Shown here piece after piece: positions 21,264 through 24,200 of a DNA stretch of 64,000 nt. Position numbers: made by a program. Position 1 is the stretch's first letter; each line of letters starts with the position of its first letter. Location: assembly GCF_030013205.1 (NCBI RefSeq), contig NZ_CP122648.1; one strand, written 5' to 3'. The stretch is from Escherichia coli (GTDB lineage Bacteria; Pseudomonadota; Gammaproteobacteria; Enterobacterales; Enterobacteriaceae).

Positions 21264-24200
21264 TGATAATCCTCCCGCCAGAAGAATAAAACATAGCCCG
21301 GTATACAAGTGTATACCGGGCTTTTTTGTGCACAGAAAACCCCCAGCTAGGCTGGGGGTTCCGGAAAGCTTTCAGCTTTGAGCCAGTTATTAAAACCCCT
21401 TTTGATTTGTTAAAACATCTTGCGGTCTGGCAACTGCAAGTGTCAAACAAGAAATCAAAAGGGGGTCCCAATGGGGAACGAAAAGAGCTTAGCGCACACC
21501 CGATGGAACTGTAAATATCACATGGTTTTTGCGCCAAAATACCGAAGACAGGTGTTCTACAGAGAGAAGCGTAGAGCAATAGGCAGTATTTTGAGAAAGC
21601 TGTGTGAGTGGAAAAGCGTACGGATTCTGGAAGCTGAATGCTGTGCAGATCATATCCATATGCTTGTGGAGATCCCGCCTAAAATGAGCGTATCCGGGTT
21701 TATGGGATATCTGAAAGGGAAAAGCAGTCTGATGCTTTACGAGCAGTTTGGTGATTTGAAATTCAAATACAGGAACAGGGAGTTCTGGTGCAGAGGGTAC
21801 TACGTCGATACAGTGGGTAAGAACACGGCGAAGATACAGGATTACATAAAGCACCAGCTTGAAGAGGATAAAATGGGAGAGCAGTTATCGATTCCCTATC
21901 CGGGCAGCCCGTTTACGGGCCGTAAGTAACGAAGTTGGATGCAAATGTCAGATCGTGTGCGCCTGTTAGGGCGCGGCTGGTAAGAGAGCCTTATAGGCGC
22001 ATTTGAAAAACCTCCGGCTATGCCGGAGGATATTTATTGATCAAAATTCCATTTTCACCGTGAATTGCACTTCACGCGGATCGCCAATCTGATTCCCCAG
22101 ATTATTTGTGGCGATGGAAGAGGTGTAATACGTTTTATCAAACAGGTTTTTGACGTTTAATTGCAGTGTGACCGGATACTGCAATTTCATTTTGTATGCG
22201 GCGAAGGCATCGGCAACGAAATAGCCTGGCAGATAATAGTCAGCCCCATTGGTTGCCGAACGACGGCTTACGCCATGTCCACCACCGCCAAACGTCAGTG
22301 TGTTATTGCCTGGCATGTTATGAATGTCATAGGTCAGGAATAGCGAACCGGTATGACGAGGAACATTCGGCAATGGTTTCCCTGCATAATCAGGATCCTC
22401 CAGAACCTTAGCATCGGTATAGTCGTAGCTGGCAATGATATTAATGTTTTCAGTTAATGCTCCCGCAAGGTCGACTTCTACCCCTCTTGAACGAACGCGG
22501 CCTGCCGTTTTGGCGATGGTTTCATCACCAATACTTTCGGTATACAACACGTTACGTTTATGGATATCAAACAGCGCAATATCTGCGGTTATACCATCGA
22601 ACAGCTCGAATTTTGCCCCGACTTCGTAAGCATTAGATGATTCCGGTGGAAGATCTCCGATGTAGCTGGCAATTGACGATTGCGGCATAAATGTTTGCGA
22701 ATAATTAGCAAATAAGGATACCGATGGCGTCAGTTTGTAGACTAACCCCAGTTTGGGCGTCCATTGTTCATCGCGGCTGTCAGTATTGACATTAAAAGGA
22801 CGGCCTTTACCCGCATACTGCGTGTAATACTGATAGCGGATCCCGGCGACGGCAATCCAGTTATCGGTCAGATAGAGCGCGTCCTGTGCATACGCTGAGT
22901 AGCTCTCCTGTTTGATCGTCTGATCACTGTCCGACGCCGAAACCGTTGTGCATTTGCTGGTATTGCCATAAACGGGGTTGTAGATATTGAAATCTTTAGC
23001 GTTTTTACAGCGAATCATATCTGTGCGCAGAAGATCATAATATTCATATGACACCCCACCCAGAATCTCATTATAGAACCCAGCAATATCAACATTCCCT
23101 TGCAGATCCGCACGAGTAGAATGCATACGCTGGGTAGATCCCTGAGTTGCATCAACACGCCGTGTCAGCGTTCCTGTCGTTGCATCATACGCGGTAACAC
23201 GAGCCTGATTGTCGCTGTATTTATCCTGGCTGTAGCTGTAATCAAAGCGCGCTGTCCACTGGCTATTGAGATGATATTCTGCGTTGAGTTGCGCCAGATC
23301 GGACTGACCATTTGTAATATTAAACGGTTCGTCAAAACGTATTTTTCGATCAACGTTTACGGGCTGTTTCGTCGTAAGGTCGAAAATCGTTCCACGATCG
23401 AACGGAGTTTTATAGTCCCGATGGGAATAGAGCATGGTTACTGTTGCATTATCACCAAACCAGGTGAGTGACGGGGCAATAAATGTACTGCGCTCTTTAC
23501 CGAAGTTTCGCCAGTAATCTTCATCCTGCACTTCCCCCGTCAGGCGGTATGCCAGCTGAGTGCCTTCAATGGGACCTGTGATATCAAGTTGCCCAGTGCC
23601 TCCGCCAAAACTGGAGGACGTGGCTGAGACAGAACCATGGAATGTTTTTTCCGGGCGCTTGGTCACGACGTTAATCAGTCCACCAGGATCGAGAATGCCA
23701 TACAGCGTGGAGGCCGGACCTTTTAGCACTTCCACACGTTCTGTGGCGGCGTTGAAACTGCGAGGAAGTACAGTTCGCAGGCCGTTGGTCATGATGGAGC
23801 CATCCCGGTTAGCACCAAACCCACGACGTACAAAGGCGTCCTGAGTTCCGCCTAATGTATTGGTCTGTACCACGTTACTGACGTTATAAAGCGCTTCATC
23901 CAGCGTCGTCGCATTCTGATTTTCCAGAACCTGATCGCTAACCGTATTGACCACCTGCGGGATATCCAGCATCGGCATATCGGTTAATGTCGCCGTGGAA
24001 GTGCTCAGAGGTTGATAACCATCGGTCGCCTCAGTTGCGGTATTTGCATCCGCTGTCACAGTGATTGTTTCGCCATCTTTGGTCGTTGCAGTGTCGGTTG
24101 CATGAATCATTGGTGCTGCAAAGAGCAGTGAAAAGAGCGCCCGACCTTTGATTCCTGAGAATGAAGGTGTGAACTTAGCCATTTAGTCTGTTATCCCAAA

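What the first reader, a model, noticed from the sequence alone, without database searches (positions are those of the whole stretch)
21328..22035. IS200-like element inserted directly after the parE terminator at the edge of the accessory module
A single Y1 transposase gene (152 aa, HuH motif) is flanked by hallmark IS200 structures: a perfect left-end hairpin (21339-21357) and a long-range stem (21397-21408 with 21452-21463) that would sequester the tnpA Shine-Dalgarno. The element's right end lies within about 10 nt of the receptor gene stop, so the right-end hairpin (22011-22029) may act as that gene's terminator. Length is about 0.7 kb, typical of IS200.
Basis: partly seen in the sequence, partly recalled or inferred. 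Interest (0 to 1): 0.45.

Follow-up and report, generated by a model that had tools for sequence, protein, structure and literature searches.

The report
An ordinary IS200C insertion sequence

Summary
The finding is real and correctly interpreted. Window 21328-22038 (711 bp, ends uncertain by 2 nt) is a complete IS200C element of the IS200/IS605 family. It is 100% identical to copies that RefSeq annotates as IS200C. A copy covering at least 80% of the 708-bp query is present in 2063 of 5426 complete E. coli genomes.

Comparison with genomes lacking the insertion shows a simple insertion. It lies between the T-tract of the parE terminator and a point 2 nt from the stop codon of a converging TonB-dependent receptor gene. 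No target duplication is detectable.

- the left-end hairpin (21338-21360);
- the 152-aa Y1 transposase, with HuH at H61/H63 and the catalytic tyrosine Y125;
- the right-end hairpin (22011-22029).

The right-end hairpin belongs to the IS. On the minus strand it is followed by TTTTT, so it plausibly now terminates the receptor transcript.

This particular insertion occurs in only 30 of 5426 genomes, so it is recent and lineage-specific.

One side observation is more interesting. About 78% of 118 IS200-group left junctions directly abut a hairpin plus T-tract of the intrinsic-terminator type. A 2025 preprint already reports the family-level signal.

Already known; low interest.

The parts
19374..21266 (+). 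parE (topoisomerase IV subunit B), the upstream flanking gene. Context only, not part of the IS.
   Evidence: Pfam hits to DNA_gyraseB, DNA_gyraseB_C (gyrase B C-terminal domain), HATPase_c and Toprim. Annotated as parE in the identical locus L001.
21295..21327 (.). Bidirectional intrinsic terminator shared by parE and the receptor gene: a 12-bp stem at 21295-21322 with the T-tract at 21322-21327. The end of the T-tract is the insertion target.
   Evidence: Called terminator-like on both strands. dG is -23.8 and -22.3 kcal/mol, z about -6. In empty sites it is directly followed by GATCAAAATT.
21328..22038 (+). Complete IS200C element, 711 bp, top strand on the window + strand.
   Evidence: Empty-site comparison. 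Multi-copy alignments. 100% identity to annotated IS200C. 87% identity to IS1541 over positions 1-711. Right-end boundary from 49 junctions.
21328..21337 (+). Left-end spacer GTGCACAGAA between the cut site and the hairpin. Together with the AA at the hairpin foot, its 3' part forms the A-rich tract AGAAAA, which is a candidate guide sequence pairing with the T-tract flank.
   Evidence: The flank and spacer form the imperfect palindrome GGGCTTTTTTGTGCA/TGCACAGAAAACCCC (I4). The guide role is inferred by analogy with IS608 and was not tested.
21338..21360 (+). Left-end perfect hairpin (10-bp stem, 3-nt loop). It is the subterminal TnpA-binding structure and the known bidirectional terminator that blocks read-through from outside.
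   Evidence: It corresponds to nt 12-34 of Salmonella IS200, which is described as a terminator (PMC4513863) that stops about 85% of upstream transcripts (PMC5435999). The 23-mer recurs exactly at more than 120 loci.
21365..21379 (+). Small 6-bp hairpin AAAGCT-TTC-AGCTTT at the start of the tnpA transcript. By Salmonella numbering the transcription start is about nt 40, which is about 21366.
   Evidence: It is a paired element in the Rfam RF01405 alignment. The start position is transferred from PMC4513863 by numbering and was not measured here.
21396..21464 (+). 5'UTR stem-loop. The lower stem (21396-21408 with 21452-21464) sequesters the Shine-Dalgarno AAGGGGG at 21459-21465.
   Evidence: Fold of -43.9 kcal/mol, z = -3.7. 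Inverted repeat I3. Rfam structure. It equals nt 69-138 of IS200, shown experimentally to block 30S binding (PMC4513863).
21471..21929 (+). tnpA, the 152-aa Y1 HuH transposase, with H61-I62-H63 and Y125.
   Evidence: Pfam PF01797 at E=9.7e-38. PDB relatives 2EC2, 2F4F, 2A6M (IS608 TnpA) and 2XM3 (ISDra2 TnpA) at E 1e-16 to 4e-23. Same CDS as RefSeq WP_025210499.1. Y125F is the catalytically dead mutant in PMC4513863.
21390..21480 (-). [quoted passage not shown]
   Evidence: Coordinates are transferred from the Salmonella mapping, where the 5' ends are at nt 153/154 (PMC4513863). The transfer takes nt 1 as 21327, and there are no indels in the Rfam alignment. Expression in this strain was not tested.
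21958..22001 (+). Interior imperfect inverted repeat near the right end (21958-21970 with 21989-22001).
   Evidence: I6, 85% complementary. It forms in the DNA fold. Function unknown.
22011..22038 (.). Right-end subterminal hairpin (22011-22029) plus the invariant tail ATATTTATT (22030-22038). On the + strand it is the weak terminator of tnpA. On the - strand it is a hairpin followed by TTTTT, a likely new terminator for the receptor gene.
   Evidence: Called terminator-like on both strands. dG about -15.5 kcal/mol, z = -5.1. Present in all other copies, so it is part of the IS. Tail invariant in 49 of 49 junctions.
22041..24182 (-). TonB-dependent siderophore receptor gene, the converging right flank. 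It is intact at 713 aa, and its stop codon lies 2 nt from the IS right end. Context only.
   Evidence: Pfam Plug and TonB_dep_Rec_b-barrel domains. ORF listed. Annotated in L001 and L005.

Best explanation
The region is an intact, autonomous IS200C insertion sequence (IS200 group of the IS200/IS605 family).

How it moves (established for the family, inferred here): its only gene encodes a Y1 HuH transposase. In this family the transposase excises the top strand as a single-stranded circle and pastes it 3' of a short target on single-stranded DNA, mainly the lagging-strand template. It recognises the subterminal hairpins at the left and right ends. It uses no terminal inverted repeats and makes no target duplication.

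Where it landed (shown): it inserted exactly at the end of the T-tract of the bidirectional terminator shared by parE and a converging TonB-dependent receptor gene. The insertion point is 2 nt beyond the receptor stop codon, and both genes remain intact.

How it is kept quiet (shown for Salmonella IS200, transferred here by sequence identity of the elements): a weak promoter; the left-end hairpin terminator, which blocks read-through from parE; a 5'UTR stem-loop that hides the Shine-Dalgarno sequence; and the antisense sRNA art200.

Local consequence (inferred): the parE terminator is untouched. The receptor transcript now meets the IS right-end hairpin plus U-tract 11 nt after its stop codon, instead of the original terminator.
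For: Identity:
- 100% identity over 708 bp to loci annotated as IS200C. A copy covering at least 80% of the query is present in 2063 of 5426 complete E. coli genomes.
- The same locus, with parE, tnpA and the receptor, is found in strain K_EC180.

Protein:
- Pfam Y1_Tnp at E=9.7e-38.
- Sequence relatives with solved structures include IS608 TnpA and ISDra2 TnpA.
- HuH at H61/H63 and Y125, which matches the Y125F catalytically dead mutant (PMC4513863).

Ends and mode of insertion:
- Empty sites in three strains read ...GGGCTTTTTT|GATCAAAATT.
- Copies at fdnI/yddM, fabF/pabC and guaA/yfgI share exactly the 711 bp and diverge outside it.
- ATATTTATT is invariant at 49 right junctions and the next base is variable.
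- No inverted repeat links the two ends.

Regulatory structures:
- Rfam RF01405 at 146.5 bits, and the folds.
- Coordinates match the published nt 12-34 and nt 69-138, and the art200 5' ends at nt 153/154.

Strand bias:
- The window + strand has GC skew +0.038 in every 8-kb bin.
- parE is on the minus strand at 3.17 Mb in K-12. The IS top strand therefore lies on the lagging-strand template, as the family mechanism predicts.
- The three other E. coli copies examined show the same orientation relative to co-directional genes.

Recency: the parE junction occurs in only 30 of 5426 genomes.
Against: Nothing found contradicts this. The limits are as follows.

- Transposition, TnpA activity, art200 expression and termination at the right-end hairpin were not measured for this copy. 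They are transferred from work on Salmonella IS200.
- This copy carries T instead of C at IS nt 91. This weakens one pair in the upper 5'UTR stem (C-G becomes U-G). It also carries M18 instead of I18 in TnpA, relative to other E. coli copies. The effects are unknown.
- The exact cut points are ambiguous by 2 nt or less, because TT and G are repeated at the junctions. A 2-bp TT duplication cannot be formally excluded from sequence alone.
- ISfinder itself could not be queried. The name IS200C rests on RefSeq annotation of identical sequence.
Confidence: 0.97

Rival explanations
1. The 22011-22029 hairpin is the receptor gene's own native terminator, and the IS ends before it. On this reading the element is shorter than proposed and lacks a right-end hairpin.
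For: On the minus strand the hairpin looks like a canonical terminator, with TTTTT after it, and it starts 11 nt after the receptor stop codon.
Against: The hairpin and its ATATTTATT tail are present, base for base, in IS200C copies next to yddM, pabC and yfgI and in 49 Yersinia and other junctions. In strains without the IS, the receptor stop codon is followed directly by the parE hairpin, with no such sequence.
Confidence: 0.01
2. The element is a domesticated, immobile relic. On this reading its retained function is to supply regulatory RNAs (the 5'tnpA sRNA and art200) rather than to transpose, as proposed for Salmonella IS200.
For: The whole 5'tnpA/art200 region matches the Rfam model at 146.5 bits. 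IS200 is described as essentially immobile, with a host-regulating 5'tnpA sRNA, in Salmonella (PMC5435999; bioRxiv 10.1101/2024.06.26.600842).
Against: This insertion is present in only 30 of 5426 E. coli genomes. The genomes that carry it hold 19-23 nearly identical copies, against a median of 1. That indicates recent transposition in this lineage. tnpA is intact, with its catalytic residues. The two roles are not mutually exclusive.
Confidence: 0.1
3. The position right after the parE terminator is not target choice. On this reading, IS200 inserts at any T-rich site, and only insertions in harmless places such as the 3' ends of genes survive selection.
For: The only strictly conserved flank feature is the T-tract: positions -6 to -1 are mostly T. 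The A-rich tract 5' of the left-end hairpin could recognise it by base pairing alone. A preprint interprets upstream terminators as favouring persistence (10.1101/2025.07.22.666184).
Against: Only 7.9% of unoccupied T-tract hexamers of the same types in the same loci are preceded by a terminator-like hairpin, against 78% of occupied ones. Most of the remaining 22% show imperfect hairpins by eye. Tandem IS1541 copies sit exactly after the hairpin plus ATATTTATT of another copy. That position is not one where selection for harmlessness would operate specifically.
Confidence: 0.35

Closest known systems
IS200C of Escherichia coli (IS200 group, IS200/IS605 family)
   Same: 100% nucleotide identity to RefSeq loci annotated as IS200C. 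The TnpA protein is identical (WP_025210499.1). The length is about 0.71 kb, and the end hairpins and 5'UTR structures are the same.
   Different: Nothing substantive differs. This copy differs from three other E. coli copies at 1-2 positions: nt 91 T versus C, and nt 197 G versus A, which gives M18 versus I18. The insertion site next to parE is rare, found in 30 of 5426 genomes.
IS200 of Salmonella enterica (the founding element; Lam & Roth 1983; Beuzon et al. 1999; Ellis et al. 2015)
   Same: Same architecture. The left-end terminator hairpin is at nt 12-34, the SD-sequestering inverted repeat at nt 69-138, the art200 antisense start at nt 153/154 and the catalytic tyrosine at Y125. All map onto the window without indels.
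   Different: Salmonella IS200 is reported as 707-710 bp, whereas this copy is 711 bp. The Rfam alignment shows scattered substitutions in the 5' region. Overall identity to a Salmonella copy was not measured here.
IS1541 of Yersinia pestis / Y. pseudotuberculosis
   Same: 87% nucleotide identity over positions 1-711. The 23-nt left-end hairpin, the right-end hairpin and the ATATTTATT tail are identical. It shows the same habit of sitting right after a hairpin plus T-tract.
   Different: The left spacer is GTGCCCAGAA rather than GTGCACAGAA. Copy number is much higher, and tandem copies occur in Y. pestis.
IS608 (Helicobacter pylori) and ISDra2 (Deinococcus), the mechanistic paradigms of the family
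   Same: The TnpA fold family is the same (PDB 2A6M, 2VJV and 2XM3 at E about 1e-16 to 1e-18). Both have subterminal hairpins and no terminal inverted repeats. Both insert 3' of a short target next to the left end, with no duplication, and with the top strand on the lagging-strand template.
   Different: IS608 and ISDra2 also carry tnpB, and they target TTAC and TTGAT respectively. This element has no tnpB. Its target is a T-tract that nearly always follows a G+C-rich hairpin.

Membership tests
IS200/IS605 family, IS200 group | Encodes a Y1 (single-tyrosine) HuH transposase, Pfam PF01797. | tested here: met
   PF01797 at E=9.7e-38, 129 bits against a cut-off of 23, over profile positions 2-121 of 121. 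PDB relatives 2EC2, 2F4F, 2A6M and 2XM3.
IS200/IS605 family, IS200 group | HuH motif and catalytic tyrosine are present. | tested here: met
   H61-I62-H63 aligns with DHIH of 2EC2 and 2F4F. Y125 lies in the DYIKHQ motif. Y125F is the published catalytically dead mutant (PMC4513863).
IS200/IS605 family, IS200 group | tnpA is the only gene, with no tnpB, and the element is about 0.7 kb. | tested here: met
   The element is 711 bp. The only other ORFs within it are short overlapping ones with no support.
IS200/IS605 family, IS200 group | No terminal inverted repeats. Instead, there are subterminal hairpins at both ends. | tested here: met
   No inverted-repeat pair links 21328-21340 to 22025-22038. 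The hairpins at 21338-21360 and 22011-22029 have a similar design: C-rich arm, loop TAG or TAT, G-rich arm.
IS200/IS605 family, IS200 group | Insertion without target-site duplication, 3' of a short target that abuts the left end. | tested here: met
   The empty site reads TTTTTT|GATC. The occupied site reads TTTTTT[711 bp]GATC. The guaA site shows the same pattern; at the fabF site the inserted block is 1 nt longer (712 bp) relative to the K-12 empty site, which also differs by a nearby C/T. A cryptic 2-bp TT duplication cannot be formally excluded, because the IS ends in TT.
IS200/IS605 family, IS200 group | The top strand lies on the lagging-strand template (the orientation bias of single-strand transposition). 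| tested here: met
   The + strand has positive GC skew throughout the window. parE is on the minus strand in the left replichore of K-12. Four of four E. coli copies examined have this orientation. The sample is small, and the result is confounded with gene-orientation bias.
IS200/IS605 family, IS200 group | TnpA binds the end hairpins and cleaves single-stranded top-strand DNA. | not testable with these tools
   This needs biochemistry.
IS200C (ISfinder isoform rule: at least 95% DNA identity or 98% protein identity to the reference) | Near-identity to the IS200C reference sequence. | tested here: inconclusive
   ISfinder was not available. The region is 100% identical to loci whose tnpA is named 'IS200C family transposase' by RefSeq/PGAP. 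This is indirect evidence.
Rfam RF01405 (STnc490) | Score above the gathering threshold of the covariance model. | tested here: met
   146.5 bits against 56, over model positions 1-124 of 124. The match is on the tnpA-sense strand, whereas the published STnc490/art200 is antisense (PMC2515195, PMC4513863). The hit therefore marks the locus rather than the strand of the sRNA.

The most novel reading that the evidence does not exclude
IS200-group transposases may choose their targets by structure, not only by a short sequence. On this reading they recognise an intrinsic-terminator hairpin plus its T-tract on single-stranded DNA as a mimic of the element's own right end, which is a G+C hairpin plus ATATTTATT.

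This would explain three observations:
- about 78% or more of left junctions abut a terminator;
- new copies land exactly after the right end of resident copies, producing tandems;
- the elements end up in harmless, transcriptionally insulated positions at the 3' ends of genes across many phyla.

The statistical association has been reported for the family (bioRxiv 10.1101/2025.07.22.666184). A recognition mechanism has not been reported, as far as the searchable literature shows.
Probability: 0.4. Interest if true: 0.45.

Novelty: already known. Interest (0 to 1): 0.1.

Why it matters
For this window it matters little. It is a correctly recognised copy of a well-studied insertion sequence, in a harmless intergenic position.

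It has three practical uses:
- It marks a recent event in a lineage where IS200C has multiplied (19-23 copies, against a median of 1), so it is a useful strain marker.
- Annotators should place the element's right end at 22038. The receptor gene's 3' end is now probably formed inside the IS.
- The locus is a clean example of the IS200 habit of landing at the end of a terminator T-tract. If this is true target recognition, it would explain how these elements persist without harming their hosts.

Tried and rejected
- Right-end hairpin as the receptor's native terminator. Rejected: the hairpin is in every IS copy and is absent from empty sites.
- ORF start at TTG 21420 (169 aa, as listed mechanically). 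Rejected in favour of ATG 21471, which has the SD 6 nt upstream and matches the RefSeq CDS.
- Terminal inverted repeats. None found.
- Other copies or fragments in the 64-kb window. The left-end hairpin occurs only once.
- Fixing the cut points to the base, using the fabF, guaA and parE empty sites. A 1-2 nt ambiguity remains, and the fabF site shows one extra T, probably a T-run polymorphism between strains.
- Older primary literature on IS200 and IS1541 insertion sites (Odaert 1998, Beuzon & Casadesus 1997, Beuzon 1999, Siguier 2014). None is held in the library. I therefore cannot say whether terminator-adjacent insertion was described there.
- Weak Rfam hits to mir-5856 on the parE terminator. 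These are chance matches to a palindrome (E about 0.6, 20 bits against a gathering score of 90).
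Full report
**What is there.** Between the stop codon of parE (19374-21266, + strand) and the stop codon of a converging TonB-dependent receptor gene (22041-24182, - strand) lies a block of about 0.7 kb with one credible gene. The gene runs from ATG 21471 to the stop at 21927-21929. It encodes 152 aa and matches Pfam Y1_Tnp (PF01797, 'Transposase IS200 like') over the whole profile at E=9.7e-38. Its closest relatives with solved structures are the Y1 transposases of Sulfolobus IS200-like elements, IS608 and ISDra2. The HuH motif is H61-I62-H63. 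The tyrosine is Y125, the residue whose Y125F change gives the catalytically dead control in Ellis et al. 2015 (PMC4513863).

**Identity.** A megablast of 21328-22035 against 5426 complete E. coli genomes finds the sequence in 3095 genomes, and a copy covering at least 80% of the query in 2063. Identity reaches 100%, and the gene is annotated every time as 'IS200/IS605-like element IS200C family transposase'. The best hit (strain K_EC180, swine) is the same locus, with cpdA, yqiA, parE, tnpA, the receptor and the ABC transporter. Yersinia IS1541 aligns at 87% identity across positions 1-711 of the element as I delimit it.

**Exact ends.** Three lines of evidence agree.
- Copies at three other loci (fdnI/yddM, fabF/pabC, guaA/yfgI) are identical to the window from GTGCACAG... 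to ...GGATATTTATT and diverge outside.
- Three strains that carry the receptor module but no IS read ...ACCGGGCTTTTTT|GATCAAAATTCC... The window reads ...ACCGGGCTTTTTT[GTGCAC...ATATTTATT]GATCAAAATTCC....
- In 49 distinct right junctions from other genomes, the nine bases after the right hairpin (ATATTTATT) are invariant and the tenth is variable.

The element is therefore 21328-22038, 711 bp. This fits the 707-711 bp range I recall from the literature for IS200. No direct repeat is created. Because the element ends in TT and the flank ends in TT, the cut points could be shifted by 2 nt or less, and a cryptic 2-bp duplication cannot be formally excluded. No inverted repeat links the two ends.

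- The left-end hairpin is a perfect 10-bp stem with a 3-nt loop at 21338-21360.
- The long-range stem is exactly as described and one pair longer: 21396-21408 with 21452-21464. It buries the Shine-Dalgarno AAGGGGG (21459-21465), 6 nt before the ATG. It is present in both the MFE and the centroid fold of 21366-21500 (-43.9 kcal/mol, z = -3.7, none of 200 shuffles as stable).
- The Rfam model RF01405 (STnc490) matches 21338-21461 at 146.5 bits against a threshold of 56, with these helices as its consensus structure.
- Taking nt 1 as 21327, the hairpin falls at nt 12-34 and the inverted repeat at nt 69-138. These are the published coordinates for Salmonella IS200. There the first structure is a bidirectional terminator that stops about 85% of incoming transcripts, and the second blocks 30S binding and represses translation about 20-fold (PMC4513863, PMC5435999).
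- The mapped 5' ends of the antisense sRNA art200 (nt 153/154) fall at 21479/21480. That is complementary to the first three tnpA codons, as published.
- The right-end hairpin is at 22011-22029 (8 bp, 7 of them G-C, z = -5.1).

**Consequences for the neighbours.**
- The parE terminator hairpin and its T6 tract are intact upstream of the IS, so parE should be unaffected.
- In strains without the IS, the same hairpin (A-tract, stem, T-rich tail) also serves the receptor gene from the other side.
- In the window, that terminator is 711 bp further from the receptor stop codon. The first thing the receptor transcript meets, 11 nt after its stop codon, is the IS right-end hairpin followed by UUUUUCAAAU. 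The pattern scan calls this terminator-like on the minus strand.
- Any read-through would run antisense to tnpA and then meet the left-end hairpin, which is followed by UUUUCUGUG on the minus strand, and after that the original terminator.

**Context.**
- K-12 has ygiN converging directly on parE.
- In the window, and in about 1748 of 5426 genomes, a block of about 7.9 kb lies between them. It carries the receptor, an ABC ATPase, two FecCD permeases, a substrate-binding protein and an RpiR regulator.
- Homology to K-12 stops at the parE stop codon. The shared terminator therefore belongs to the accessory block, and the IS does sit at its parE-proximal edge.
- The IS/parE junction itself is found in only 30 genomes. 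The ones listed are porcine ETEC/O139-type strains with 19-23 IS200C places per chromosome, whereas the median over genomes that have any is 1. This is a recent, lineage-specific insertion by an element that has been active in that lineage.

**Mechanism.**
- Established for the family (IS608 and ISDra2 work; from my own knowledge and PMC5027513, PMC2806898): TnpA excises the top strand as a single-stranded circle and inserts it 3' of a short target on single-stranded DNA, preferentially the lagging-strand template. The cleavage sites are recognised by pairing with a short guide sequence just 5' of each hairpin.
- Consistent with this, shown here: there are no terminal inverted repeats and no duplication. 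The window + strand has positive GC skew in every bin, and parE is co-directional with replication in K-12, so the IS top strand lies on the lagging-strand template. The same holds for the three other E. coli copies examined.
- Also shown here: both hairpins are preceded by an A-rich tract (AGAAAA at the left end, GAAAAA at the right end) and are associated with T-rich cleavage-site sequences (the TTTTTT flank at the left end, TTTATT at the right end). The left junction forms an imperfect palindrome around GTGCAC that pairs the flank T-tract with the A-tract (I4). That these A-tracts act as guide sequences is my inference.

**Side observation: terminator targeting.**
- All four E. coli copies follow a G+C hairpin plus T-tract.
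- A scan of one genome per species for the exact 23-nt left hairpin returned more than 120 loci. They come from Y. pestis, Vibrio, Brenneria, Dickeya and Edwardsiella, and from MAGs assigned to Mailhella, Oxalobacter, Bacillota, Peptococcaceae, Saccharibacteria and Elusimicrobiaceae.
- Of 118 distinct left junctions, 92 (78%) have a perfect-stem hairpin (at least 5 bp, at least 3 G-C pairs) with a T-rich tail ending exactly at the IS. The figure is 7 of 590 at random positions in the same loci. Mean fold energy of the 45 nt upstream is -18.6 kcal/mol against -8.5. Most of the other 26 junctions show imperfect hairpins by eye.
- Among 3186 unoccupied T-tract hexamers of the same types, only 7.9% have such a hairpin.
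- In Y. pestis, several copies sit in tandem, the second starting right after the hairpin plus ATATTTATT of the first.
- A recent preprint reports terminator-like sequences over-represented immediately upstream of ISs, most strongly for IS200/IS605. It reads this as limiting transposase expression (10.1101/2025.07.22.666184).
- My junction data fit that signal. They also suggest active target choice of a right-end-like structure, but post-insertion selection is not excluded. I could not reach the older IS200/IS1541 papers to see whether this was described there.

**Verdict.** The element is a known IS200C copy and nothing about it is unexpected. Interest is low.

Noticed in passing
window 21295-21337; loci L011-L130 (left junctions); L002-L004: IS200-group elements sit almost exclusively at the end of the T-tract of an intrinsic-terminator-like hairpin. 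This holds for 92 of 118 distinct junctions, against 7 of 590 random controls and 7.9% of unoccupied T-tracts. The family-level signal is reported in a 2025 preprint, but the precise junction geometry suggests target recognition.
   Followed up: partly
L076, L077, L079, L093, L123 (Yersinia pestis NCTC5923): There are tandem IS1541 copies. The left end of one copy starts immediately after the right-end hairpin plus ATATTTATT(T) of another. The element's own right end therefore behaves like a target site.
   Followed up: no
L011-L039, L055-L071 (MAGs assigned to Oxalobacter, Bacillota, Mailhella, Peptococcaceae, Saccharibacteria, Elusimicrobiaceae, Desulfovibrio): The 23-nt left-end hairpin AACCCCCAGCTAGGCTGGGGGTT is conserved exactly in elements from very distant phyla. 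Each has its own spacer variant and its own distinct terminator flanks. Many lie at contig ends. A Saccharibacteria copy is only 65% identical in DNA and 75% in TnpA, yet keeps the hairpin. This suggests strong constraint on the hairpin, horizontal spread, or both.
   Followed up: partly
window 21268-21387 (junction); E. coli genomes: The parE-adjacent insertion occurs in only 30 of 5426 complete E. coli genomes. Those listed are porcine ETEC/O139 strains with 19-23 IS200C places per chromosome; other genomes have up to 35, and the median is 1. IS200C has therefore expanded recently in some lineages, despite the element's reputation for immobility.
   Followed up: partly
window 22039 to about 29900 (receptor to RpiR regulator); L131: An accessory block of about 7.9 kb lies between parE and ygiN. 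It carries a TonB-dependent siderophore receptor, a FecCD-type ABC transporter and an RpiR regulator. It is absent from K-12. Its left boundary is exactly at the parE stop codon, so the 'parE terminator' is part of the block. It is present next to parE in about 1748 of 5426 genomes.
   Followed up: partly
window 22041-24182 versus L001 3714-5854: The receptor gene is an intact 713-aa ORF in the window. In strain K_EC180, which carries the identical IS insertion, it is annotated as a frameshifted pseudogene.
   Followed up: no
window 21338-21461: The Rfam STnc490 model matches the tnpA-sense strand. The published STnc490/art200 is antisense to tnpA (PMC2515195, PMC4513863). The Rfam family as built seems to describe the left-end terminator plus the 5'tnpA stem-loop, not the antisense RNA.
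   Followed up: partly
window 21418 and 21524: This copy differs from other E. coli IS200C copies at two positions. IS nt 91 is T instead of C, which turns a C-G pair of the upper 5'UTR stem into U-G. IS nt 197 is G instead of A, which gives TnpA M18 instead of I18. K_EC180 shares both variants.
   Followed up: no
L062 (Dickeya undicola), around 697-719: A left-end hairpin is flanked symmetrically by TTTTTTGTCTATAGAA and its reverse complement TTCTATAGACAAAAAA, with no IS body. It may be a solo left-end palindrome or a MITE-like remnant.
   Followed up: no
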